Assembly (NCBI GenBank): GCA_964496765.1
Contig: CAZCAP010000007.1
Coordinates: forward strand, 17,759-37,808
Origin: an uncultured archaeon
GTDB taxonomy: Archaea > Iainarchaeota > Iainarchaeia > Iainarchaeales > CSSED10-239
Direction of reading: 5' to 3'
Length of the DNA: 20,050 nucleotides
Shown here: positions 8,633-20,050 of the stretch, piece by piece
Numbering within the stretch: the stretch's first letter is position 1
Layout: every line of letters starts with the position of its first letter
Notes under the pieces: generated by a model
The model's input: only the letters and a program-made list of their open reading frames with translations
Told to the model about the DNA's origin: nothing
Database searches by the model: none
Translations under genes and position numbers: made by a program

Positions 8633-9814
8633 GTGATAAAAATGGGATTTACTAATTTTTTTAAAAAAATAATACGGAAAGAACCAACTGTTGAATATAA
8701 GCCAACTATCAAAGAATTAACTTTCAATGAAATTAAGGATTTAATTAAAAATAAGGAGACAGAAATTAATACTAGGGAAAAGGAAGTTTTTGTTTTAATT
8801 AAAAATAGAGCAAGCTCATTTGTTAGAGATATAAATCACAAAGTTAGAAATTTAGAAAGCACAGATGTCGAATCAAAGGACACCAATGAGAGAATAAAAT
8901 CAATTGTAAAAACAAATTTAAATAAGTATATAGAGCACGTGAAAAAACTTATAGAAGAAATAGATAACCTGAATGAAGATAATTTTGAACATTTTATTAA
9001 ATGGGTAAATAATCTCTTCATTGATTTTGAAAAAAAGTCCTATGTTAATTATCACAGAGCTGTTTTCTTGATAGGGCAAGATTTAATTGACATCAGAAAG
9101 AACATAGCTGACTTTTCTAAATCTTTAATAAGCATATTAGATAAAAACAAAGAAATAATAGGATCTTCTCGTCAGATTCATGCAATTCAACAAAAAATAA
9201 AACAAGTCTTTGAAGCCAATGAAGTTATTAAAGGATTTGATGAAAGAATTAATTTATTAAATGACAAAACAAAAGATCTAGAAAAAATTAATCAAACTCT
9301 GGATAATAAAATTAAAGAAATTAAAGAAAATAAAAGTCATAAAGAAAATATAAGACATAAAGAAAAAATAAAGGAAACAGAAAAAAATTTAAAAGAAGAA
9401 ATACATGAATTTAAAGGATTAATTGACTTTAAAGAATTAGGTAATATATTTCATAGTGAAGAGAAAAAAACAAAAATAATAAGAGCCTATAAAGAAAGGT
9501 TTGAAGAAACCTATTTAGAAGATAATGGAGCAAGCATTCTTCTCCTTCTTGATGAAGCAAAACTAAACACTAGTGGAATCTCACTTAAAATAAAGCAAAT
9601 CAACACTAAAAGAGAAGAACTAATTGTGCAGGAGTCAACCATTAAAAAAGACGAAACAGAAGATTTGTTAATTGAAATTAATAAAATCAAACTAGAAATT
9701 GAAAAACTAAAAACCGAAAAAGACGATGATTTAAAGAAAAGTGAAAAAATTAAACAACAAAGAGAAAAGATAATAAGTTCAATAAAACAAGAGTTAGCAA
9801 AAATGAACAAATAG
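8633..9814 (+). CDS. long coiled-coil protein, unknown function
   Basis: K/E/I/N-rich heptad-like sequence throughout. The track ORF starts at GTG 8633, but the ATG at 8642 (MGFTNFF) is the more likely start. Confidence 0.55.
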   Translation: MIKMGFTNFFKKIIRKEPTVEYKPTIKELTFNEIKDLIKNKETEINTREKEVFVLIKNRASSFVRDINHKVRNLESTDVESKDTNERIKSIVKTNLNKYIEHVKKLIEEIDNLNEDNFEHFIKWVNNLFIDFEKKSYVNYHRAVFLIGQDLIDIRKNIADFSKSLISILDKNKEIIGSSRQIHAIQQKIKQVFEANEVIKGFDERINLLNDKTKDLEKINQTLDNKIKEIKENKSHKENIRHKEKIKETEKNLKEEIHEFKGLIDFKELGNIFHSEEKKTKIIRAYKERFEETYLEDNGASILLLLDEAKLNTSGISLKIKQINTKREELIVQESTIKKDETEDLLIEINKIKLEIEKLKTEKDDDLKKSEKIKQQREKIISSIKQELAKMNK

Positions 9815-10960: not shown

Positions 10961-11251
10961 TTATATAGGATAGTGTTTAAAGCCACTTACAGCAAACTGC
11001 TGACCAGAATTAGAGATGCCTCGAACCAGATTTGGACTGGCGGTCTCCAGATTATGAGTCTGACTTTGACAAGCGTAAGCTGTGTGTAGTGTATAGTCTG
11101 TAGAACCACTGAACAAAGCAACCTTCAACAATTGCCTAACCATTTTAGATATATTAATATGCTTAGCTTTCAAATAATCATACGTATGTTTATCTAAATT
11201 TATTTCAATTCTCTTTAATTCTTGCTCAGATTCAATCTTTTTTTCGGTCAA
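10961..11251 (-). CDS. integrase N-terminal fragment int(N), RHH-like, reading through the att repeat
   Basis: 96-aa ORF. RIEINLDKHTYDYLKAKHINISKMVRQLLKVAL has a strand-helix-helix (ribbon-helix-helix) look. The C-terminal QTHNLETASPNLVRGISNSGQQFAVSGFK is the att sequence translated in the same frame as at the right end. Only the last 4 codons (HYPI) are chromosomal. Confidence 0.8.
   Translation of the reverse strand: MTEKKIESEQELKRIEINLDKHTYDYLKAKHINISKMVRQLLKVALFSGSTDYTLHTAYACQSQTHNLETASPNLVRGISNSGQQFAVSGFKHYPI
10974..11062. repeat. left att repeat (partial tRNA-Met 3' copy plus 43-bp flank)
   Basis: Identical at 89/89 positions to 19957..20045 in a base-by-base comparison. Positions 11017..11062 duplicate the tRNA 3' 46 nt. 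The sequence beyond 11062 is not tRNA-like. Confidence 0.95.
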
Positions 11252-12149
11252 CTCGTTTCTCCTCCTTAGGGGTTATATTTAGTAATGCTATTAATAATAT
11301 GTCTGTTGGGGTAAACATCTGCAATCCTTTTGGAGTTTCTTTTTGCATAATGTCGGAAGCAAAAATAGCAGATAGCTCAGGAAAATGAATGACATCAATA
11401 TTAGCGATATCCATTATGTCTTTATTATTAATTGACCTCAATATCCAACTTAACAATGCTTCATTATAACTGTTTAATTTTAGATTAAGAGAACATTCTT
11501 CGCAGATTTTTTTAATTGCAGATTTTAAATTTCTTTTTTTAATTGCATTAAATTTAAGATTATTAAACTTCTCTCTTGCAGATTCTAATTGTTCTCCAAA
11601 AAAAGCCCTCCCTAAAAAATCAAAAATACAATTCATTTCATATGCTCTTTTAATCAAATCAAGTATATTATTTTTAAGGTCATAAGAAAATCTAGAGCTT
11701 GGAACACGCCTATAGTTAAAAGTTTTAAAATAGTTATATAAATAATCTTTTTGAACAGCTGTTAGTTTAATACTTGGATAAAGTTCTTCTAACCAGTTCA
11801 ATTTAGGAATATACACCCAATTATTTTTTTTCTTATCAATCCAATTGAGCGTCATTTTATTTTTTACAATAGTATATGGTACTTCCTTATTAACATCCTT
11901 GTCAAATATATACTTGCACACAAAACGTTCTTCAGACCCATAATCAAAAAATAACTTTGTTTTATTTAGGTCATTAAAAACAGTTGAAGATTGTCCACTT
12001 CCTTTAGGATATAATATTGCCTTTATATCTTTTTGGGTAAGCCATTTACCTTCTTCAGACCCATACACAAAAATAGTAAACAATATTTTACTAGAGATGT
12101 CATCTTCTAAAAGTTTTAATATATTTTTATTTTCATTCATTAAATTCAC
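11232..12149 (-). CDS. hypothetical protein of the element, possible N-terminal wHTH
   Basis: 305-aa ORF whose stop overlaps the int(N) start by 20 nt, suggesting coupling. The N-terminus ILKLLEDDISSKILFTIFVYGSEEGKWLTQKDIKAIL looks HTH-like. No firm motif. Confidence 0.6.
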   Translation of the reverse strand: MNLMNENKNILKLLEDDISSKILFTIFVYGSEEGKWLTQKDIKAILYPKGSGQSSTVFNDLNKTKLFFDYGSEERFVCKYIFDKDVNKEVPYTIVKNKMTLNWIDKKKNNWVYIPKLNWLEELYPSIKLTAVQKDYLYNYFKTFNYRRVPSSRFSYDLKNNILDLIKRAYEMNCIFDFLGRAFFGEQLESAREKFNNLKFNAIKKRNLKSAIKKICEECSLNLKLNSYNEALLSWILRSINNKDIMDIANIDVIHFPELSAIFASDIMQKETPKGLQMFTPTDILLIALLNITPKEEKRVDRKKD

Positions 12150-12161
12150 TCATTCATTTAT

Positions 12162-12188
12162 AATACTGCTTTTCTTAAAAACAGTATT
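12162..12188. promoter_or_regulatory. inverted repeat AATACTG-N13-CAGTATT in the divergent control region (candidate operator)
   Basis: A perfect 7-bp inverted repeat sits 13-39 nt upstream of the ORF305 start. The 10-mer TAATACTGCT recurs exactly at 12261..12270. Confidence 0.35.
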
Positions 12189-12324
12189 GGACTACTAAAT
12201 TATAAAATTTCAGTAAAATTCTATAGGAATATAACCTTCTTCATACATAAGTTTAATATTTAATACTGCTACAGGTCTAAAAGACTGACACAGTAATATA
12301 ATGTATGCAATGAAAAGTTTTTAA

Positions 12325-12576
12325 ATGGATGTGGGATGCATGAATTTAAATCAAGTTACAGGGTTGCCGATAGGTAGACTCAGAGAGAAATACCTTGTAT
12401 TAATTATAAAAGAACCTAAAAGCTTTATAACAAAATGTAAGTCTCTTGACCTTCCAGTTTATTTTGACCAACAAAAAGTTTATCTTTTTGAGAAGAACAT
12501 CTGTTATTGTTATTTTTATAATAATGATGCTAAGTTTATTCTTGGCGCATTAAAAGGGAGAGGTATAGCTCAATAA
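12325..12576 (+). CDS. small hypothetical protein of the element
   Basis: 83-aa ORF and first gene of the rightward unit. An alternative start is MNLNQ. The segment VTGLPIGRLRE is weakly HTH-like. Confidence 0.45.
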   Translation: MDVGCMNLNQVTGLPIGRLREKYLVLIIKEPKSFITKCKSLDLPVYFDQQKVYLFEKNICYCYFYNNDAKFILGALKGRGIAQ

Positions 12577-12623
12577 GTATGTTACCTATGGGATGTATGT
12601 GACATATGTTTTAAGTTTTATTT

Positions 12624-12631
12624 TTTATATA
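12624..12631 (+). promoter_or_regulatory. candidate TATA box upstream of the helicase gene
   Basis: TTTATATA lies about 43 nt upstream of the ATG at 12671. This is weak evidence in AT-rich DNA. Confidence 0.25.
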
Positions 12632-12670
12632 GAAAAAAGATAAACTAATAGTAACATTAAGAACAAGTGG

Positions 12671-14245
12671 ATGTGTGGATATATGATTGAAGAAGATAGT
12701 ACTAAATTCTTACTAAGAAGAATGGGTGAGCTTAACAAAGATGGGGCATTAGATAGAAAGTTTGAACAAGAACGATTCGAAAGGGAAGCACTTACAATTA
12801 CTAAAAGAAATGAAAGAGGCTTATCCGATTGGGGAATTGGATATCCATTGGAAGAAGATGGCAGATATTCTATGATAGTCCCTCAATTACAAGATTGGAA
12901 GATGCTACAAGAGAAGTATCTTAAAGACAAGCCACTCCTCTTTGACAATCAACAGATATGGTGGGCTTGGAATCCTAAAGATTGTTGCTGGCAACCTACT
13001 GATGAAACAAGCATATTACTTAATTTTGACCAATCTATTACATTATCTGACCAGCACAACAGCATACAACCTCTTACAAAAAATATAATTTTAGAAGCAC
13101 TTAAACGAGCATCCAGAAAAAATTATGATGAAATAAAACCTATAGAAAAAACATGGGTCGTATTTAAAGATACTATTGTAGATTTGTCTCAAAGTTTAGC
13201 ATTCCCAAATAATCCTAAGTATTTTGCAACTAATGTTATTCCTCAAAATGTTTTAAATTTACAATCCACAGAAACGCCAGTAATAGATAGATTGTTTAGA
13301 GAATGGGTTGGAAATAAATACGTTCCAACACTTTATGAAATTATTGCATATTCAATGTTATCTGATTATCCAATCCATAGACTATTTTGTTTGATTGGCT
13401 CAGGTCGAAATGGAAAATCTACTTTCATTAACTTATTATTAAATTTTATAGGTAATCCAAATAGCACATCTGTTGAATTGGAAACGCTGACAAATAATCC
13501 TTTTACATCCTCAAAGTTATACAAAAAATTAATCTGTCTTGTAGGAGAAACAAACTTTAATTTACTTAGGAATACAGAGATTATTAAAAAATTAACAGGT
13601 CAAGACCCTATCCCTGCTCAATTTAAGCATAAGGGGTTATTTGATTTTAAAAACTTTGCTAAAATAATAATTGCAACAAACTCCTTACCTCAATCCCTTG
13701 ATAAGACTGGTGGATTCTATTCCAGATGGCAAATAATCGATTTTCCAAATCGATTTTCAGAAGTAAAAGATGTTTTAGCTGATATCTCAGAACAAGAATA
13801 TGAAAACTTAGCAAGAAAATGTATTCTTATCCTACAAAAGTTATTAGTAACCAGAAAGTTTACTAATGAAGGAACATTAGAACAGAGAATGCAAATTTAT
13901 GAAGATAAAGCTAATCCTTTACAAAAATTCATTAGAGAATATTATGATTACAATAGTCAAGAATATGTGATTGGATTCGAATTTTATAATCTATTTAGTT
14001 ATTTCTTGAAGAATAATGGAAGTAGGGCATTATCAAGAATAATAGTTACACAAATGCTAAGGGAAGAAGGTATTGAACCAAAAAAAGAGAGAGTAGATTT
14101 TAAAGGGGAAGAAAAGCAATGGGTTGTTTATTGGGGATTGAAATTAAAAAACAAGAATCAAGAGGGATTAAATAAATATATTAACACTACAGAAAATAAT
14201 AAAGAAAAAGTGGGTGATATAAATGCAGGACTTCAAGAATCTTAG
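12671..14245 (+). CDS. SF3 helicase, D5 / P4-primase C-terminal family (replication protein)
   Basis: Walker A in the typical context LFCLIGSGRNGKSTFINLLLNFIG. Walker B-like KKLICLVGE. Motif C-like IIATNSLP. The upstream W-rich region (IWWAWNPKDCCWQPTD) resembles the D5_N linker. No primase catalytic motif was seen. Confidence 0.75.
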   Translation: MCGYMIEEDSTKFLLRRMGELNKDGALDRKFEQERFEREALTITKRNERGLSDWGIGYPLEEDGRYSMIVPQLQDWKMLQEKYLKDKPLLFDNQQIWWAWNPKDCCWQPTDETSILLNFDQSITLSDQHNSIQPLTKNIILEALKRASRKNYDEIKPIEKTWVVFKDTIVDLSQSLAFPNNPKYFATNVIPQNVLNLQSTETPVIDRLFREWVGNKYVPTLYEIIAYSMLSDYPIHRLFCLIGSGRNGKSTFINLLLNFIGNPNSTSVELETLTNNPFTSSKLYKKLICLVGETNFNLLRNTEIIKKLTGQDPIPAQFKHKGLFDFKNFAKIIIATNSLPQSLDKTGGFYSRWQIIDFPNRFSEVKDVLADISEQEYENLARKCILILQKLLVTRKFTNEGTLEQRMQIYEDKANPLQKFIREYYDYNSQEYVIGFEFYNLFSYFLKNNGSRALSRIIVTQMLREEGIEPKKERVDFKGEEKQWVVYWGLKLKNKNQEGLNKYINTTENNKEKVGDINAGLQES

Positions 14246-14573
14246 ATTGTGGCAGTTAGCCAGAGAGTTTGTTAGTGATATATATAAGCTAACAACCACC
14301 TTCCCAAGCCACGAGCTCCACTCTATGACTAACCAGCTCAGAAGAGCAAGTTACAGCATACCCTCAAACATAGCGGAAGGCTCTGGAAAAGGTAGCCAAA
14401 AGGAATTTAAGAGATATTTAAGTATAGTTAGTGGCTCAATAAAAGAGGTAGAATGTTTTTTAATATTAGCAAGGGACTTGAACTACATCAATGAACAACA
14501 ACTGACTGAACTTACCCAAAAGTTAGAAATTATTGGAAAGATGAATAGTAAGTTAACAAATAAATTATACTGA
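14223..14573 (+). CDS. four-helix-bundle protein (23S rRNA intervening-sequence / Avd-like family)
   Basis: FKNLRLWQLAREF...LRRASYSIPSNIAEGSGKGSQKEFKRYLSIVSGSIKEVECFLILARDL matches the remembered family consensus (W..A......IY..T..FP..E...L..Q.RRA..SI..NIAEG.....KE...FL.IA.GS..E). It overlaps the helicase 3' end by 23 nt. Confidence 0.8.
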   Translation: MQDFKNLRLWQLAREFVSDIYKLTTTFPSHELHSMTNQLRRASYSIPSNIAEGSGKGSQKEFKRYLSIVSGSIKEVECFLILARDLNYINEQQLTELTQKLEIIGKMNSKLTNKLY

Positions 14574-15710
14574 ATCTTTAGATTCATTAATCTGTGATTT
14601 TATTTTAGGATAATTGTTAACAAAACTATCTTCTCCGAACCAGTGGCTAACTTTTTCAAATAAATTACAAGCCATTTCATCTAAATTAGAATAGTCTTTA
14701 CAGTCGATACCCTCTATTATATAATTTATATCTATCCCAATTAATTTATTTTGATTAGGTAAAATTATGTTTTCAGGATTAACAAAACCAATTTTAAGAG
14801 ATATTTGCGGATTCCTATTAATCTTTTTATAATAACTTCTATAGGATTTTAAAAAGAAACCTAATGATATATACATTGCATCAGAATCCAATTTATATTT
14901 ATTAGATGGGGTTGTTTGCGGAATTGTTCTTATCAATAATAACTCACCTTTATCTAAAAAAGATATGATGCCATTATCACCCATTCTTTTAAATTTGATT
15001 TTTACTCCAAAATAATCTTTATTATAATCTGACAACTCAAACCCACCATTTATAGATGATGTCATGATTCTAATTATCTCAGAACTCAAAAGAAAATTAT
15101 CCATTTCAAAAGCAGGTTGAATAAGAAAAAAGAAAGAAGGACTTATTCCATTAAATTTTAATATAACATTTTCTAAAATAAATTGTTCTCTTTTTTTCAG
15201 AACTTCTCTTAATTCTAATCTATCTTTATATAGATTATATATTTCTCTTTCAGATAATGGTATATATTTACCTTTTACTTGAGTTGATAAACTTCCTATA
15301 GATGTACCTTCTCGCTTATAATAAATATAATCCTTCAGATGCATATGTGGGGCAAGATTACTTCTTGGGATATCAATAATTAAATAAAATAAATTTTGGT
15401 CATCATCTTTTGAAATTTCATATGTTTCATAAAAAACAGTTCCAGAAATCCCGTTTCTTATCCAATCACTAATTTTTCGTTTATACAAATCTAATTTCGC
15501 TTTATCTATCCCTATTAGTACACCCTTATCAGATACTCCAAAAATAATAGAACCCCCTTTTTCAGAATTTGCAAATCCGGAGACGTATTTCATTATTTTA
15601 GTGTTTGCATCTAAATTTATTAAAAATTGCTCATCTTTATATTCAATATCATCTTGTTCGTCATGCTGTACAATTTGTTTTAAATGTTCAAAATCTTTAA
15701 TATAACTCAT
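14565..15710 (-). CDS. AlbA_2 / Schlafen-core (divergent AAA) domain protein with unknown C-terminal half
   Basis: The N-terminal 140 aa read EQDDIEYKDEQ...IMKYVSGFANSEKGGSIIFGVSDKGVLIGID...YYKREGTS. This fits the AlbA_2 pattern E.K......I.AFAN..GG.I.IGV.D.G...G....R.G..T. The remaining ~230 aa are unrecognised. Confidence 0.7.
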   Translation of the reverse strand: MSYIKDFEHLKQIVQHDEQDDIEYKDEQFLINLDANTKIMKYVSGFANSEKGGSIIFGVSDKGVLIGIDKAKLDLYKRKISDWIRNGISGTVFYETYEISKDDDQNLFYLIIDIPRSNLAPHMHLKDYIYYKREGTSIGSLSTQVKGKYIPLSEREIYNLYKDRLELREVLKKREQFILENVILKFNGISPSFFFLIQPAFEMDNFLLSSEIIRIMTSSINGGFELSDYNKDYFGVKIKFKRMGDNGIISFLDKGELLLIRTIPQTTPSNKYKLDSDAMYISLGFFLKSYRSYYKKINRNPQISLKIGFVNPENIILPNQNKLIGIDINYIIEGIDCKDYSNLDEMACNLFEKVSHWFGEDSFVNNYPKIKSQINESKDSV

Positions 15711-15855
15711 AATATCAACTCATATTATATATATTACGATTAGGTTTAAATACATTGTTTTTGAGTTATAATTAATAATTTATTACATCTCATACAATAA
15801 ATTATCTTCCAGTTTCAATTATTGTTTTCGATAAATTACAGAGTTTATAATTGCG

Positions 15856-17238
15856 TTATAAAAAATTAATTTCTATGAAAATTCTATAATCTTTGATTAA
15901 TGTGTGCGAGGACTTATACACTATAAAACAATTGTAACAATTATTTTTTATAGCATTAATAAGTTTTGATTTATTTTCAAAATTTTTAGCAATATATCCC
16001 AAAAGTTTACCTTCATACAATATTTTGATTGCTGTCGAATCATATTTGTTAGTAGGTTCATATTTTAATATCAAATTACTCTTATCTAAAATTGAATCTA
16101 AATAATTCACGGTTAAATCTCTATATTGAATTCCTTTAATTATAGTTATGTGAGACAATGGTATTCTTTCTGGTGTAATATTATTAATTTTTAATAAAAT
16201 ATATTTAATATTTGATTTAAATTTAATGAATTCATTAAACCAATATTTTTGAAGCACAGATAATTGGTCTGTTTGTGATTTAACTTCTACAAAATATACT
16301 TTATTTTCTTTTTTATTGTATATAAATAAATCAGGCATACCTGCAGTGTGAGTTGCCAAAAAAGTAATGGTTTTATTTGGTAACTTATCAACACATCTTT
16401 TTAATTCATTATCAGAAATAGCTAACGTTGAAAACACATTCTCTAGTGTTTGATTATTGGAAATAACAGAATAAATTGCTAAATATTTATTATTTTTATA
16501 ATATTCAATTGCATAATCTTCTAAATTACATATTTTATTACTGTATTCAACCAGAAATTTACTTCTAAACCATTCTTTGTTTATTCCAACATATTTAATA
16601 GTTATGATTTCAGATTTAATTAATTTTTTATTTTTTTCAAAAGTGTTAAGTATTTCTGCTTCATTTTCAAATTGTATACTAAAATTTAAATCAAAATTAA
16701 TATCTATTTTACCATTATCAAAAGGTAGTTGATTACGTTTTTGTTTAATATTTTCTGTAAATATTAAATTGCCTTTTTTATACTTTTCTTTGATATAATT
16801 TATATCTTTTTCAAGAGTAATTGACTTATCTATAAAATTTTTTCTTTTATTATTTATAACATTCCCAAAATCAGTAATGTACTCAATTTTATCTTCATTA
16901 ATAGGATATTTTTTTACAAATGGTTTAATGGTTATATTTTTTGATTCGTTCTCAATTTTTAGTGATAATTGGTTATTTTGTCTTACTAATACATCTTCTT
17001 GTTCCTGTTGTTGTTTTTGTTTTTCTAATCTGTCTTTTTGCTTTTGCTTTTCAGAGTTTTTATATTTAATAAACTCTTTAATTGATGCAATTAATATTGA
17101 AGGTCCAATAAATATTAACCAAAATAAAACCCAACTGCTGTGGTTTAATCCTACAACTGCACCAATAGTTAACCCAAAGAATAATAATACCAAATATACC
17201 CCGAACATTTCCATATCAATTACCAATTTATTAAACAC
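15856..17238 (-). CDS. membrane-tethered FAN1-like VRR-NUC nuclease fused to a C-terminal HIRAN domain
   Basis: Two N-terminal TM helices are followed by a basic/QK coiled segment. The nuclease motif is HTAGMPDLFIYNKKENKVYFVEVKSQTDQLSVLQKYWFNEF (PD...EVK...Q, VRR-NUC). The C-terminal IKGIQYRD...LILKYEPTNKYDSTAIKILYEGKLLGYIAKN fits HIRAN (L.REP.N.YD..AI.V......GY). Confidence 0.75.
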   Translation of the reverse strand: MFNKLVIDMEMFGVYLVLLFFGLTIGAVVGLNHSSWVLFWLIFIGPSILIASIKEFIKYKNSEKQKQKDRLEKQKQQQEQEDVLVRQNNQLSLKIENESKNITIKPFVKKYPINEDKIEYITDFGNVINNKRKNFIDKSITLEKDINYIKEKYKKGNLIFTENIKQKRNQLPFDNGKIDINFDLNFSIQFENEAEILNTFEKNKKLIKSEIITIKYVGINKEWFRSKFLVEYSNKICNLEDYAIEYYKNNKYLAIYSVISNNQTLENVFSTLAISDNELKRCVDKLPNKTITFLATHTAGMPDLFIYNKKENKVYFVEVKSQTDQLSVLQKYWFNEFIKFKSNIKYILLKINNITPERIPLSHITIIKGIQYRDLTVNYLDSILDKSNLILKYEPTNKYDSTAIKILYEGKLLGYIAKNFENKSKLINAIKNNCYNCFIVYKSSHTLIKDYRIFIEINFL

Positions 17239-17374
17239 AATTCAATAAAAATAAACTTATCTAATTAGTTTTATTTAAATCTAATCTTATCAGTTACTTT
17301 TGCAATATAGTCAGTAACTTCTCTTCCTTTAATTCTTATTTCTACTAGATATTTTTTATTTTTAAAATTTGAAA

Positions 17375-18487
17375 TTATTGTATTGCAATTACTTTTGAAG
17401 TAGTTGCAATAATATTTTGGTCAGCACCTGTTCTTAAATCCACTTTCAATACATATTGCCCTTCAGATAAAGTTAACAGTCCTTTATTGACATCATTTCT
17501 ATCATAACCAATTAGATAATCTGACTGTGACCCATTATACTGGGCAGGAATTGAATGTAAATCAAAAGGTGCATTTATATCTTTATTTACAATGACCCCT
17601 TCTTTTAAAATAGAAACATCAAAATTTGGATTAGATAATTTGAAAAAACCATTATTTTTAATGTTAATTTTAAAAACTATAAGAACACAATCACCTGATT
17701 CTTCAAAACAACGAGGAGTATAATCTATAATAGACAATTCAACAACAGGATTTGGAGTCATTTCTTTTATTACATTAGATTTAGGAATCTGCTCTTGAAA
17801 TAATTTTATATATGATTTAATATCTTCTTTAATTGGGATAATATCAAAGTTAAAAATAGAGTTAAATAAATCTGTTTGGTCACTAGTATAATTATTTAAT
17901 CGAGTTAATTCAGTATTATTTACTGTAACTGTTTGATTTAAAAGTTCTAACTGTGTATCAATATCTTCAACAGATTCTAATTTATTATAAATTGCATTTA
18001 TATTTTCTGAAAAATTATCTGCACTATAAATAAAATCCACAAATTCTTTGTAAATATCCATATTATAATCATTACTTAATTTAGTTACTGCTTTATTCAT
18101 TTGTTCGACTCTAGTTTTTCTAATATCGTAATTTGTGGTGATATCATAAATATCATTGGATTCAAGATTAATTGAAAGCCATGCTGAAAGCATATCTTTA
18201 TACTCTTTCGTTTCTTCTAATTTTAATTTAACACAAGTATTAATATTTTGATTATTTTGTTGTAATTCTTTACATACAAAAAACGTATCACAAGGAACAT
18301 CCAAACAACAATTTTCTTGTGTTTCTCCTTTTTCTAGGATATTATTTCCACAAATTGCTTTAGAACTCGGTTTGGAAAATTTATCTGCATTGCTTAAACT
18401 ATTAAATAAAATAAATAATATAATTCCAACTAAAATTACAGCCCCAACAATTATACCAATCAATTTTAAATTTTTATTTTTAGCCAC
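17375..18487 (-). CDS. membrane-anchored, Cys-rich extracellular protein
   Basis: The N-terminal anchor is LKLIGIIVGAVILVGIILFILF. It is followed by the cysteine cluster CGNNILEKGETQENCCLDVPCDTFFVC...C and a beta-rich-looking C-terminal domain. Confidence 0.6.
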   Translation of the reverse strand: MAKNKNLKLIGIIVGAVILVGIILFILFNSLSNADKFSKPSSKAICGNNILEKGETQENCCLDVPCDTFFVCKELQQNNQNINTCVKLKLEETKEYKDMLSAWLSINLESNDIYDITTNYDIRKTRVEQMNKAVTKLSNDYNMDIYKEFVDFIYSADNFSENINAIYNKLESVEDIDTQLELLNQTVTVNNTELTRLNNYTSDQTDLFNSIFNFDIIPIKEDIKSYIKLFQEQIPKSNVIKEMTPNPVVELSIIDYTPRCFEESGDCVLIVFKINIKNNGFFKLSNPNFDVSILKEGVIVNKDINAPFDLHSIPAQYNGSQSDYLIGYDRNDVNKGLLTLSEGQYVLKVDLRTGADQNIIATTSKVIAIQ

Positions 18488-18599
18488 ATTTACCCCTCAC
18501 TGTATATTATAACTATTTACCATAACATTTTTAACTTAATCCTTAACTTAACTCAGAGCTTGTTATTGGTTATTATATTTCGAAGTCAGTAATAGTATT

Positions 18600-18872
18600 A
18601 TGGATAACAGCCAGCTAATAGCAAAGATACTTAGAAGTAAACTTAAACAAAAAGTATTATTAGAGATAAGTAAAGAAAAGGTTACACAAGCACAGTTATC
18701 CAAAAGATTTAATCTATACAGAAGTCATATTAATGAACTAATTACTGACTTATTAAAATCTAATCTAATTATTTGCCTTAATCCTAAAGATAGGGATTAT
18801 AAATTTTATGAGATAACCAAATTAGGCAAAGATATCTTAGCTTCTGTGGATAAGATAAAGAAAGAATTATAG
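18600..18872 (+). CDS. small winged-helix transcription regulator (ArsR/MarR-like)
   Basis: 90 aa. VTQAQLSKRFNLYRSHINELITDLLKSNLI reads as an HTH and YKFYEITKLGKDIL as a wing. It is divergent from the surface-protein gene. Confidence 0.6.
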   Translation: MDNSQLIAKILRSKLKQKVLLEISKEKVTQAQLSKRFNLYRSHINELITDLLKSNLIICLNPKDRDYKFYEITKLGKDILASVDKIKKEL

Positions 18873-18987
18873 TTTATAGATTAGGACTACCTACTCTCAA
18901 GGAGAGGTCTTCTATCTCCATTATTTGCTTCTTTTTGAGTGTTTATGTTTGTTAACTAATAGGTAATCTACAATTGTCTCTATATAT

Positions 18988-19020
18988 ATTGCGTGTATAT
19001 ATCTTATTGTGTGTATATAT
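18988..19020. repeat. two 15-bp direct repeats ATTG(C/T)GTGTATATAT within a TA-alternating tract
   Basis: 18988..19002 and 19006..19020 differ at one position. (TA)n runs flank them at about 18979..19032. They lie in a 312-bp non-coding gap between convergent gene ends. Confidence 0.7.
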
Positions 19021-19184
19021 TATATATATATTAGACTGTTGATTTATGTTCTCTTATTCTCTAGTTTGTTTACTTTTTCTAAGAGATTACCTTACCCAAT
19101 ATATTAATTACATAAATTACACTATTTGCTAATAGTTAATAGTTGGGCATCTCCTTCTAAGATACACTGCCTTCACAAGCTACA

Positions 19185-19856
19185 CTAATTACTAATAAAA
19201 ATATTCAAATAAGCTATTAACTTCTCTGAATAGAACTTATCTGCTAACATCTGTCTTGAAAGATAATGATTACTACCTACTGAATTAGCAGTTCTGCCTT
19301 GATAATAATCTGCTATTGATTCTGGAACCCCTAATTCAATACATTTAGTATAGAACCACTTTCTACAATATTTTATTGGTATTAATTTCTTTCTTTTTAT
19401 TTCTGCTTCTAAGCTTCCTACAGATAATTGCTTGTGGTCTGTGGACAATCTATTATATACTCCCAAAGGTAGATAACAAAAGTAACTATTCTTATTATGT
19501 CTTAGATAGTTCATAGTAATCTTAGTGAATCCATCTAATTGTTGACACTTCAAGCTATCTATTTTTTCTAAAAGATACTCTCCCTCTACTTTTCTTACTC
19601 CTGATACAAGATACATTAGATATATTAGTTTATTTTTAGTAGTTAGTTTGAATAGGGTTTGTTGTATCTCATTATCTGTTGGAACATAAGTATCTTGCTT
19701 TGATGGATTAGAAAAGTTAAGTAGTTTCTTTATAGGTAAGATATCTGTTTCTGTGACTTTATGTTTCTCTTGTAGATATTTCAATAACAAGGATACAAGA
19801 ATAACTGTATATCTTGTTTCTTTTATCTTACTTATGTTCTTCAGTAGATAATCCAT
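19185..19856 (-). CDS. integrase C-terminal catalytic fragment int(C), tyrosine recombinase (SSV-type)
   Basis: The track ORF is 223 aa from an internal ATG. The frame has no stop upstream, through 19857..19956, through the att repeat and on to the window edge. Candidate catalytic residues are SGVRKVEG (Arg), KYCRKWF (xxR), YQGRTANSVGSNHYL (Arg ... Tyr nucleophile). Confidence 0.8.
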   Translation of the reverse strand: MDYLLKNISKIKETRYTVILVSLLLKYLQEKHKVTETDILPIKKLLNFSNPSKQDTYVPTDNEIQQTLFKLTTKNKLIYLMYLVSGVRKVEGEYLLEKIDSLKCQQLDGFTKITMNYLRHNKNSYFCYLPLGVYNRLSTDHKQLSVGSLEAEIKRKKLIPIKYCRKWFYTKCIELGVPESIADYYQGRTANSVGSNHYLSRQMLADKFYSEKLIAYLNIFISN

Positions 19857-19956
19857 TAGTTCTTGAAAATCATACGTATGTTTTGGGAAAATAAGAGGTA
19901 TTTTGTTGATTAGGTCTCTCTTGTATTGCTTACAGAAGTCTTGGTCGTTAATCCAC

Positions 19957-20045
19957 TGTTTAAAGCCACTTACAGCAAACTGCTGACCAGAATTAGAGAT
20001 GCCTCGAACCAGATTTGGACTGGCGGTCTCCAGATTATGAGTCTG
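19957..20045. repeat. right att repeat, embedded in the intact tRNA-Met gene
   Basis: Identical at 89/89 positions to 10974..11062. It continues at 20046+ into tRNA-like sequence (..AGCGC). Confidence 0.95.
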
Positions 20046-20050
20046 GCGCT
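20000..20050 (-). tRNA. tRNA-Met or Ile2 (anticodon CAU), 3' two-thirds; 5' part lies beyond the window
   Basis: The reverse complement reads AGCG-CCAGA-CTCATAA-TCTGG-AGACC-GCCAG-TCCAAAT-CTGGT-TCGAGGC-A. That gives an anticodon arm with CAT, a 5-nt variable loop, a T arm, the acceptor 3' strand and discriminator A at 20000. It is not initiator-like: there are no three G-C pairs in the anticodon stem. Confidence 0.75.

What the first reader, a model, noticed from the sequence alone, without database searches (positions are those of the whole stretch)
19185..20045. Integrase gene is split by its own att site (SSV-type partitioning); excision would rebuild a 349-aa ORF
I translated the minus strand upstream of the annotated ATG (19856). 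The frame stays open as ...QTHNLETASPNLVRGISNSGQQFAVSGFK-QWINDQDFCKQYKRDLINKIPLIFPKHTYDFQEL-MDYLL... The underlying att segment gives exactly the same peptide at the C-terminus of the 10961..11251 ORF. Recombination between the repeats would therefore join 92 aa (left end), 34 aa and 223 aa in frame, giving 349 aa. To my knowledge, partitioning integrases with attP inside int are described for Sulfolobales fuselloviruses and a few other archaeal elements. One in an AT-rich, DPANN-like genome would extend that family.
Basis: partly seen in the sequence, partly recalled or inferred. Interest (0 to 1): 0.8.

Follow-up and report, generated by a model that had tools for sequence, protein, structure and literature searches.

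The report
Self-splitting integrase in a DPANN archaeon
A 9-kb mobile element sits in a tRNA-Met gene of a small DPANN archaeon, and inserting there cut its own integrase gene in two, a known archaeal trick (SSV-type or "suicidal" integrase) seen here in a host group where the literature I could read had not described it.

Summary
A perfect 89-nt direct repeat (10974-11062 and 19957-20045) bounds an 8,983-bp element.

- **What the repeat is.** It is the last 46 nt of a tRNA-Met(CAT) gene plus 43 nt downstream.
- **Empty site.** Contigs from sibling samples carry the unoccupied site, joined exactly at the 89 nt.
- **Rebuilt gene.** In-silico excision fuses a 63-codon N-terminal piece, 29 att-encoded codons and 257 C-terminal codons into one 349-aa ORF.
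- **Family membership.** The C-terminal domain matches Pfam PF16795 (E 1e-27) and the solved SSV1 integrase catalytic domain. It carries the SSV-type R...KxxR...Y signature (R214, K288, R291, Y324).
- **Relatives.** Their C-terminal halves start in-frame inside tRNA genes. Their N-terminal halves are small ORFs ending in tRNA-derived peptides. One distant homologue (337 aa) is unsplit and colinear across both junctions.
- **Host.** Named homologues of a flanking host gene come from DPANN genomes.
- **Not found.** No attP junction or unsplit gene of this element turned up.

Verdict: a new member of a known kind, well documented and moderately interesting.

The parts
20000..20050 (-). tRNA-Met(CAT) gene, 3' 51 nt. 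The gene runs to 20072 in the parent contig, beyond the window end.
   Evidence: ARAGORN finds it at L001 9785-9857. The window is the reverse complement of L001 from position 9807. Sequence.
19957..20045 (.). attR core, 89 nt. 20000-20045 is the tRNA part (anticodon stem to discriminator base) and 19957-19999 is the 43-nt extension. The anticodon loop at 20035-20041 is the inferred crossover region.
   Evidence: The crossover position is inferred from the usual behaviour of tRNA-targeting integrases and was not tested.
19185..19956 (-). int(C): codons 93-349 plus the stop, comprising the core-binding and catalytic domains. The annotated 223-aa ORF (ATG at 19856) is a truncated call. Catalytic residues: R214 (19593-19595), K248 (19491-19493), K288 (19371-19373), R291 (19362-19364), R314 (19293-19295), Y324 (19263-19265).
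   Evidence: Pfam PF16795, PHROG 5127, PDB 3UXU/3VCF/4DKS, structure model and Foldseek. Homologues align from query residues 66-104 onward. Coordinates.
11063..19956 (.). Body of the integrated element: 8,894 nt, or 8,983 bp as a circle with one att copy.
   Evidence: Bounded by the repeats. Absent, with an exact junction, from contigs L071 and L075.
10961..11251 (-). int(N) ORF of 96 codons. Codons 1-63 (11063-11251) encode the N-terminal domain, codons 64-92 are att-encoded, then 4 codons of host flank and a stop. TTG start at 11251; AGGAGG box at 11261-11266.
   Evidence: Homologues are small ORFs with a conserved first ~60 residues and tRNA-derived tails. There is a weak CcdA/ribbon-helix-helix signal.
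10974..11062 (.). attL core, 89 nt. 11017-11062 is the duplicated 3' part of the tRNA and 10974-11016 is the 43-nt extension. The anticodon-loop copy is at 11052-11058.
   Evidence: Rfam gives a partial tRNA match at 11017-11074(-), 17 bits, below threshold.
11177..11189 (-). ACATACGTATGAT, containing the palindrome CATACGTATG. Copy 1, inside int(N); it would lie 114 nt before the core in attP.
   Evidence: Two copies in the window against 0.01 expected. The same DNA is present in the int(N) genes of relatives.
19869..19881 (-). ACATACGTATGAT, copy 2, inside int(C) upstream of the annotated ATG; it would lie 75 nt after the core in attP.
   Evidence: AAACATACGTAT occurs at the same place in L011, L013 and L014.
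11232..12149 (-). Cargo ORF of 305 aa with no family match. It overlaps the int(N) start by 20 nt on the same strand, so the two are probably co-transcribed.
12671..14245 (+). Primase/helicase-like replication protein of 524 aa (DUF5906; PHROG DNA primase families).
   Evidence: Pfam E 1.4e-18; PHROG 864 E 2.4e-47.
14223..14573 (+). 116-aa protein of the 23S rRNA-intervening-sequence / Avd-like four-helix family.
   Evidence: Pfam PF05635 E 1.1e-36.
14565..15710 (-). 381-aa protein with a Schlafen AlbA_2 domain.
   Evidence: Pfam PF04326 E 9.5e-17.
15856..17238 (-). 460-aa protein with a hydrophobic N-terminus, a VRR-NUC nuclease domain and a weak HIRAN match.
   Evidence: Pfam PF08774 E 4.8e-10; sequence.
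17375..18487 (-). 370-aa protein with an N-terminal membrane anchor and no family match.
18600..18872 (+). 90-aa winged-helix DNA-binding protein.
   Evidence: Pfam HTH_45 E 5e-5, just below its cut-off.

Best explanation
Window 10974-20045 is an integrated 8,983-bp plasmid- or virus-like element of a DPANN archaeon. It encodes an SSV-type ('suicidal', type I) tyrosine integrase whose attP lies inside the int ORF.

In the free circle, int is one 349-codon gene with three parts:
- an N-terminal domain of about 60 aa, possibly ribbon-helix-helix;
- a disordered linker that includes residues 64-79, encoded by a copy of the 3' part of tRNA-Met;
- a core-binding domain and a catalytic domain (R214, K248, K288xxR291, R314, nucleophile Y324).

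Int recombines attP with attB, which is the 3' 46 nt of the host tRNA-Met(CAT) gene plus 43 nt downstream. The crossover is probably in the anticodon loop. Integration leaves an intact tRNA gene at attR, its 3' part now supplied by the element and followed in frame by int(C). The 96-codon int(N) fragment ends up 9 kb away at attL. Excision would need a full-length integrase from a related incoming element and would restore the 349-aa gene.

Shown: the repeats, the tRNA identity, the frames, the family membership and catalytic residues, the same split in relatives, an unsplit distant homologue, and an exact empty site in the same population. Inferred: the crossover position, enzymatic activity, the route of excision and the role of the N-terminal domain.
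For: 1. Perfect 89-nt direct repeats; one 349-codon ORF in the in-silico circle.
2. The repeat is part of a tRNA-Met(CAT) gene found by ARAGORN in four independent contigs.
3. Empty site: L071 and L075, from other samples of the same study, match the two flanks at 100% and 99.9%. The two matches overlap by exactly the 89 nt.
4. Pfam PF16795 at 97 bits against a cut-off of 27. In PHROG integrase 5127, residue 153 aligns to profile position 169 of 355, so the rebuilt length fits the family.
5. SSV1 integrase structures 3UXU, 3VCF and 4DKS match at E about 1e-19. AlphaFold mean pLDDT is 81, and Foldseek ranks 3uxu first with TM 0.78.
6. R214, K288-x-x-R291, R314 and Y324 align to SSV1 R211, K278-x-x-R281, R304 and Y314. 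This is the R...KxxR...Y signature that PMC5861418 gives for SSV-type integrases.
7. Homology continues upstream of the annotated ATG to residues 66-104 in dozens of homologues. Many of their called N-termini are translations of tRNA 3' ends, such as VAGSIPARS, GGSNPLWS, VRTRSGVQIPS and GSNPILC.
8. Five of the closest loci in reference genomes have a same-strand tRNA gene abutting or overlapping the start of the match.
9. All 11 complete int(N) homologues in metagenome contigs, and all 31 significant hits among 1.84 billion representative proteins, are ORFs of 48-109 aa. They share a conserved N-terminus and a variable tail that usually looks tRNA-derived.
10. P0067 (337 aa) aligns to the rebuilt protein in a single BLAST match, query residues 14-347. 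It holds a T-arm plus acceptor-strand fragment inside its ORF, on a contig with no tRNA gene.
11. The tRNA-encoded residues 64-79 fall within the only disordered stretch of the model, residues 49-80.
Against: - No attP junction of this element was found in JGI metagenome contigs.
- No full-length 349-aa protein is in the 5.8-billion-protein collection; the best hit is the 223-aa fragment.
- No protein over 109 aa carries this N-terminal domain at E below 0.001 in 1.84 billion representatives. The fused form is therefore attested only by the distant P0067.
- The empty sites could be ancestral rather than excision products.
- The N-terminal fold assignment is weak. CcdA matches are below Pfam's cut-off, and the model draws this region as helices at pLDDT about 70.
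- Why attB carries 43 nt that encode a conserved integrase segment is unexplained.
Confidence: 0.88

Rival explanations
1. The integrase is classical (att beside the gene, not inside it). The real integrase would start at or near the annotated ATG. The 96-aa ORF would be an independent small ribbon-helix-helix gene, such as a regulator or excisionase, that merely reads into att.
For: The small ORF has its own AGGAGG box and start codon. It weakly resembles the CcdA ribbon-helix-helix domain. It is only ever seen as a stand-alone ORF in public data.
Against: None of about 40 int(N) homologues has a stop before att; the stop always falls just after the att-derived tail. The frame through att is the same on both sides here, and also in element 1 of L052. 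The 34 codons upstream of the ATG are conserved and fold with high confidence. P0067 has the same three parts fused. The catalytic domain belongs to the family that the review equates with self-splitting integrases (PMC8371274).
Confidence: 0.06
2. The element did integrate as described but is now an immobile remnant. The two halves are pseudogenes that will never be rejoined, and the empty sites are simply lineages that were never invaded.
For: No attP or unsplit gene was found. The literature says split integrases cannot excise on their own (PMC8371274). Related loci show decay, such as the truncated int(C) in L052 and a frameshifted one in L065.
Against: Both att copies are 100% identical over 89 nt, and both int halves are free of stops and frameshifts. 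Occupied and empty sites coexist in populations at least 99.9% identical, which points to a recent event. Rescue in trans by related elements is documented for SSV2 and pTN3 (PMC8371274), and several related elements exist in similar hosts.
Confidence: 0.25
3. The repeat and the apparent split are an assembly artefact, with a chimeric contig joined at a repeated tRNA fragment.
For: Some contigs break near the repeat (L073 and L076 start within or next to it).
Against: The same arrangement was assembled independently in several ENA and JGI samples. Contigs span attR (L003, L004), attL (L069, L072) and the whole element (L001, L002). The empty site is also assembled (L071, L075).
Confidence: 0.01

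Closest known systems
SSV1/SSV2 integrase of Sulfolobales fuselloviruses (type I archaeal integrase; PDB 3UXU, 3VCF, 4DKS)
   Same: The catalytic domain is in the same Pfam family (PF16795), with a matching fold and active-site residues: R, K-x-x-R, R in place of the third His/Trp, and Y. attP lies inside int, attB is the 3' part of a tRNA gene, and integration yields a short int(N) and a long int(C). Overall length is similar (349 against 335 aa).
   Different: Identity to the SSV1 catalytic domain is only 23-27%. The host is an AT-rich DPANN archaeon whose tRNAs have 55% G+C, which I read from general knowledge as suggesting a non-hyperthermophile. The N-terminal domain looks ribbon-helix-helix-like. 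The att identity is 89 bp and runs 43 nt past the tRNA, against the 40-50 bp stated as usual for suicidal integrases in PMC8371274. No capsid gene was recognised in the element.
pT26-2-like and pTN3-like suicidal integrases of Thermococcales, Archaeoglobales and Methanosarcinales (Badel et al. 2020, PMC7253208; Cossu et al. 2017)
   Same: Self-splitting integrases with PF16795, carried by small integrative plasmids and viruses of 8-38 kb. Close relatives target many different tRNA genes, tandem integrations occur, and att sites can extend beyond the tRNA (PMC8371274).
   Different: My genome scan found Methanosarcinales, Archaeoglobales and Thermoplasmata homologues at only 25-35% identity, so this is a separate clade. 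I did not test which named subfamily it falls into.
pNOB8-type / SNJ2-type / lambda-type classical integrases
   Same: Tyrosine recombinase chemistry, and tRNA genes as targets.
   Different: Those keep att outside int and stay intact on integration. Their signatures are R...YxxR...Y or R...HxxR...Y (PMC5861418), whereas this protein has K at that position.

Membership tests
SSV-type (type I, 'suicidal') archaeal tyrosine integrases | Catalytic domain belongs to Pfam Phage_integr_3 (PF16795) | tested here: met
   E 1.3e-27, 97.1 bits against a cut-off of 27, residues 182-337. All but one of 72 homologues carry the same domain.
SSV-type (type I, 'suicidal') archaeal tyrosine integrases | Active-site signature R...K-x-x-R...Y, with Lys where other families have His or Tyr (PMC5861418) | tested here: met
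   R214, K288-Y-C-R291 and Y324. K288, R291 and Y324 are invariant and R214 is nearly invariant in 28 sequences. They align to SSV1 R211, K278, R281 and Y314 through the PDB profile alignment (numbering).
SSV-type (type I, 'suicidal') archaeal tyrosine integrases | Fold of the catalytic domain matches the solved SSV1 integrase domain | tested here: met
   AlphaFold model with pLDDT 81. Foldseek ranks 3uxu, 3vcf and 4dks first, with TM 0.64-0.78 normalised to the target, ahead of lambda Int and XerA.
SSV-type (type I, 'suicidal') archaeal tyrosine integrases | attP lies inside the int ORF, so integration separates int(N) and int(C) to the two ends of the element | tested here: met
   The repeats start at codon 64 and end in codon 93. 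int(N) is at attL and int(C) at attR, in the same frame, and the circle gives a 349-codon ORF. The empty site confirms the element's boundaries.
SSV-type (type I, 'suicidal') archaeal tyrosine integrases | An intact, unsplit int gene exists in the free form of the element | tested here: inconclusive
   Not found for this element or its close relatives. Found for the distant homologue P0067 (34% identity), which is colinear and has an internal tRNA-like fragment.
SSV-type (type I, 'suicidal') archaeal tyrosine integrases | Catalyses integration and excision without accessory factors, while the split halves are inactive | not testable with these tools
   Needs biochemistry. Known for SSV1/2, pTN3 and pT26-2 (PMC8371274).
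tRNA-targeting integrative elements | attB overlaps the 3' part of a tRNA gene, and the element restores that part | tested here: met
   tRNA-Met(CAT) is complete at attR in L001-L004 and at the empty site in L071 and L075. The identity block starts in the anticodon stem.
pNOB8-type (type II) classical archaeal integrases | att lies outside int, the gene stays intact on integration, and the signature is R...YxxR...Y | tested here: not met
   att is inside the ORF, and position II is Lys, not Tyr.

The most novel reading that the evidence does not exclude
The N-terminal domain may be a ribbon-helix-helix DNA binder that recognises the two conserved CATACGTATG palindromes flanking the attP core, at -114 and +75 nt. 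That would make these DPANN integrases two-site, arm-binding enzymes rather than the 'simple' SSV type. After integration, the intact and well-translated 96-aa Int(N) fragment could persist as a working small DNA-binding protein, for example as a repressor or as a block to incoming relatives, instead of being a dead pseudogene.
Probability: 0.15. Interest if true: 0.65.

Novelty: new member of a known kind. Interest (0 to 1): 0.45.

Why it matters
Self-splitting integrases have been described as a speciality of hyperthermophilic archaea. [quoted passage not shown] 2020.

This locus gives a clean, fully delimited case in an AT-rich DPANN host. It has attL, attR, an exact empty site, and a sizeable set of relatives: 72 homologues of the whole protein and 31 clusters of N-terminal fragments. 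That weakens the link between this strategy and high temperature. It also offers a compact 9-kb integrative element and a defined 89-bp target as a possible genetic tool for DPANN archaea, which currently lack one.

There is an annotation lesson too. The many small 'hypothetical' ORFs ending in tRNA-like peptides, and the integrase genes called from inside tRNA genes, are halves of one gene.

Tried and rejected
- **attP junction scan.** I scanned JGI metagenome contigs for the predicted junction, using both unique arms around a gapped core. There were no hits.
- **Unsplit relatives.** I searched with the N-terminal piece in the 5.8-billion-protein collection, in metagenome contigs, and as a profile against 1.84 billion representatives. 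Only short ORFs were found.
- **Viral contigs (IMG/VR).** Only one distant hit at 24% identity.
[quoted passage not shown] They come from different tRNA targets, so it is a mixed array and I did not use it.
- **L008/L012 (tRNA-Thr).** No second att copy lies within 10 kb.
- **Circularity of L005 and L007.** No terminal overlap.
- **Rfam on the att fragments.** Only sub-threshold partial tRNA or T-arm matches. Identity to the ARAGORN tRNA is the better evidence.
- **Bacterial-type promoter and terminator scan near int(N).** No more sites than in shuffled sequence, and the model is not appropriate for archaea.
- **Target tRNA of P0067.** The tRNA matching its internal fragment was not found among the fetched loci.
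- **Literature gap.** The paper most likely to have covered DPANN mobile elements (Wu et al., Nat Microbiol 2024) is not in the held library. I cannot exclude that it already reports this split.

Full report
**1. The observation**

The window holds one long perfect direct repeat of 89 nt, at 10974-11062 and 19957-20045. Its G+C is 46%, against 28% for the window.

The frame containing the annotated 223-aa ORF (19185-19856) stays open upstream of its ATG, through the repeat, to the window end. ORF 10961-11251(-) reads the other repeat copy in the same frame, giving the same 29-residue peptide QTHNLETASPNLVRGISNSGQQFAVSGFK.

I joined the sequence as a recombination between the repeats would, that is minus strand 11251 to 11063, one repeat copy, then 19956 to 19185. 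This gives a single ORF of 349 codons. It starts at a TTG with an AGGAGG box 9 nt upstream. The repeat begins exactly at codon 64 and ends 2 nt into codon 93.

**2. What the repeat is**

The window is the reverse complement of part of a 110-kb metagenome contig, ENA ERZ27248961 k141_165059, fetched as L001. In that contig and three others, ARAGORN finds a complete tRNA-Met(CAT) gene immediately upstream of the integrase fragment.

The repeat consists of the last 46 nt of this tRNA, from the anticodon stem to the discriminator base, plus the next 43 nt. The window cuts the tRNA gene at 20050, which is why the window scan missed it. The copy at 10974-11062 is a partial duplicate lacking the 5' part of the tRNA.

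**3. The boundaries are real: an empty site exists**

I looked up contigs encoding the two host genes to the left of the element, a 65-aa ORF and SfsA. Two of them, L071 and L075, come from other samples of the same study. In both, ribose-5-phosphate isomerase, tRNA-Met, the 65-aa ORF and SfsA are adjacent, with no element between them.

L071 matches L001 in two pieces, at 100% and 99.95% identity. The two pieces overlap by exactly the 89 nt (alignment). This is the attB that in-silico excision predicts. Occupied and empty sites therefore coexist in near-identical populations. Other contigs independently span attR (L003, L004), attL (L069, L072) or the whole element (L002), so assembly error is excluded.

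**4. The protein**

- **Family.** The rebuilt protein matches Pfam PF16795 (Phage_integr_3, the family built on the SSV1 integrase) at E 1.3e-27. It also matches PHROG integrase family 5127. There residue 153 aligns to profile position 169 of 355, so the rebuilt length fits the family.
- **Solved structures.** A profile of 28 homologues hits the three solved SSV1 integrase catalytic domains (3UXU, 3VCF, 4DKS) at E about 1e-19.
- **Predicted structure.** An AlphaFold model has mean pLDDT 81. Foldseek ranks those SSV1 structures first (TM up to 0.78 normalised to the target), followed by full-length lambda Int, XerA, XerH and Cre.
- **Catalytic residues.** Through the alignment to SSV1, these are R214, K248, K288-x-x-R291, R314 and Y324. 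They correspond to SSV1 R211, the hairpin Lys, K278-x-x-R281, R304 and Y314. R...KxxR...Y is the signature that Wang et al. give for SSV-type integrases, as opposed to YxxR in the pNOB8 type and HxxR elsewhere (PMC5861418).
- **Where the tRNA-encoded residues fall.** The only disordered part of the model is residues 49-80, which contains the whole tRNA-encoded stretch (64-79). The 43-nt extension encodes the start of the well-folded middle domain.

**5. Relatives show the same split**

Seventy-two homologues were found, and all but one carry PF16795. Their alignments to the rebuilt protein start at residues 66-104. The 34 codons upstream of the annotated ATG are therefore conserved coding sequence, and the ATG call is a truncation.

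Many gene calls begin with peptides that are translations of tRNA 3' ends, such as VAGSIPARS, GGSNPLWS, VRTRSGVQIPS and GSNPILC. Among the closest loci in species-representative genomes, L011, L012, L013, L014 and L018 each have a same-strand tRNA gene (Met or Thr) abutting or overlapping the start of the match. L017 has none, and L016 has too little upstream sequence to tell.

The N-terminal piece behaves in the mirror-image way. Its homologues are ORFs of 48-136 aa with a conserved first ~60 residues, and most tails look tRNA-derived. Among the closer homologues, the tail types correspond to those seen at the int(C) ends. None has a stop before att.

On L052, a tRNA-Thr gene is followed by a decayed int(C), about 8 kb of element, an int(N), a diverged att copy, and then a second int(C). 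The first int(C) and the int(N) read the tRNA fragment in one frame (LVRTRSGVQ). The second int(C) reads it in another (LGKDEVGGS). The tRNA-encoded segment thus behaves as a tolerant linker.

**6. An unsplit relative**

P0067 is 337 aa and 34% identical. It aligns to the rebuilt protein in one BLAST match covering query residues 14-347, that is across both junctions. Its gene contains a G+C-rich T-arm plus acceptor-strand fragment between a similar N-terminal domain and the rest of the protein. Its 7.6-kb contig has no tRNA gene.

This is the fused architecture predicted for the window's element. For the element itself and its close relatives, no fused form was found in any collection I could search.

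**7. Host and element**

- **Host.** Named homologues of the flanking P-type ATPase are all from Nanoarchaeota, Pacearchaeota, Woesearchaeota or unclassified archaeal genomes. The closest integrase relatives are in genomes labelled Candidatus Iainarchaeum or ainarchaeum. The host is therefore a DPANN archaeon, though the phylum is not settled. Its two tRNAs have 55-56% G+C. From general knowledge of how tRNA G+C tracks growth temperature, I take this to suggest a non-hyperthermophile. I could not determine the sampling environment.
- **Cargo.** The element carries a primase/helicase-like replication protein, an Avd-like protein, a Schlafen/AlbA_2 protein, a membrane-anchored VRR-NUC nuclease, a winged-helix protein and three proteins with no family match. 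No capsid gene was recognised.

**8. Mechanism**

The best-supported reading is the standard SSV-type cycle. The circular element expresses the 349-aa integrase, which recombines attP (inside codons 64-93) with the tRNA-Met attB. The tRNA is restored and int is cut into int(N) and int(C).

The identity block starts 4 nt before the anticodon loop. The anticodon stem forms a short inverted repeat around a 7-nt loop. This is the usual crossover arrangement for tRNA-targeting integrases, so I infer the crossover there.

According to the literature, split halves do not recombine and excision depends on a full-length integrase from a related element (PMC8371274). Several related elements exist in similar hosts.

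**9. Comparison with what is known, and novelty**

Self-splitting integrases are established for Sulfolobales (SSV1/2, pXQ1), Thermococcales (pTN3, pT26-2), Archaeoglobales and a few Methanosarcinales (PMC7253208, PMC8371274). Long att sites that extend outside the tRNA are also on record (PMC8371274). Neither the review nor the other papers I could read mentions DPANN hosts. One relevant paper, Wu et al. 2024, was not available.

This is therefore a new, well-delimited member of a known kind in a new host group, not a new mechanism.

**10. Open points**

- attB itself contains the 43 nt that encode a conserved integrase segment. The motif QF[AT]VSGFKQW also occurs in relatives that use other tRNAs. 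A plausible but untested explanation is a remnant of an earlier related resident.
- A 13-nt sequence containing the palindrome CATACGTATG occurs once in int(N) and once in int(C), against 0.01 copies expected. The int(N) genes of relatives keep ATACGTAT at the DNA level. The Thr codon is ACG in all 12 relatives that have Thr there, while ACG makes up only 3% of Thr codons in the window's long ORFs. This hints at a DNA-level site, but shared ancestry could also explain it.
- The N-terminal domain gives only weak CcdA-type ribbon-helix-helix signals.

Noticed in passing
window 20000-20050 (continues to 20072 in L001): A tRNA-Met(CAT) gene is cut by the window end, so the window tRNA scan missed it. 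It is the integration target.
   Followed up: yes
L071 1847-1962 and L075 875-990 (attB); compare window 10974-11062 and 19957-20045: Contigs from sibling samples carry the exact empty site. The element is therefore polymorphic within a population that is at least 99.9% identical.
   Followed up: yes
window 10974-11016 and 19957-19999; L071 1920-1962: The att identity runs 43 nt past the tRNA, and this stretch is also present in the empty site. It encodes SNSGQQFAVSGFK, part of a segment conserved in integrases that target other tRNAs, so the host site seems to carry integrase-derived sequence. The int(N) tail in L059 likewise continues past the tRNA into LTPNDKQFAV. Possibly a remnant of an earlier resident; unexplained.
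   Followed up: partly
window 11177-11189(-) and 19869-19881(-): ACATACGTATGAT (palindrome CATACGTATG) occurs twice against 0.01 expected. Both copies encode KHTYD and would flank the attP core at -114 and +75 nt. Relatives keep ATACGTAT using the rare Thr codon ACG (12 of 12, against 3% usage in the window). It may be a protein-binding site.
   Followed up: partly
window 11063-11251(-), residues about 13-45 of int(N): The N-terminal domain weakly resembles the ribbon-helix-helix DNA-binding domain of CcdA. Pfam CcdA matches 8 of 12 members with best E 6e-4, below the cut-off, and PDB 2ADL matches at E 0.008. The AlphaFold monomer draws the region as helices at pLDDT about 70.
   Followed up: partly
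L052 2194-2927 and 10001-11070: Tandem array at a tRNA-Thr gene: decayed int(C), about 8 kb of element, int(N), a diverged att copy (85% identical), then a second int(C). The two element lineages translate the same tRNA-Thr fragment in two different reading frames.
   Followed up: partly
P0035, P0038, P0039, P0044, P0046, P0049, P0051; L007 5735-6742: A sister group of 314-335-aa homologues (47-51% identical in the C-terminal part) has a different N-terminus (motif IVIVNNIYIN) and no tRNA-like segment. L007 has no tRNA gene. Whether these integrases split on integration, or where their att lies, was not examined.
   Followed up: no
window 14223-17238: Cargo includes an Avd-like / 23S rRNA-intervening-sequence protein, a Schlafen AlbA_2 protein and a membrane-anchored VRR-NUC nuclease with a weak HIRAN match. 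The set could serve defence or counter-defence. PADLOC was not run.
   Followed up: no
L005 6255-7601: The contig with the unsplit homologue encodes a concanavalin-A-like lectin-domain protein with a faint Pox_A32 packaging-ATPase match (E 0.006). This hints that the element may be a virus.
   Followed up: no
L065 1054-1932 and 6189-6395: This contig has a frameshifted int(C) next to tRNA-Thr and, about 5 kb away, an int(N) whose tail comes from a different tRNA. It looks like a mixed or rearranged array rather than a single element.
   Followed up: partly
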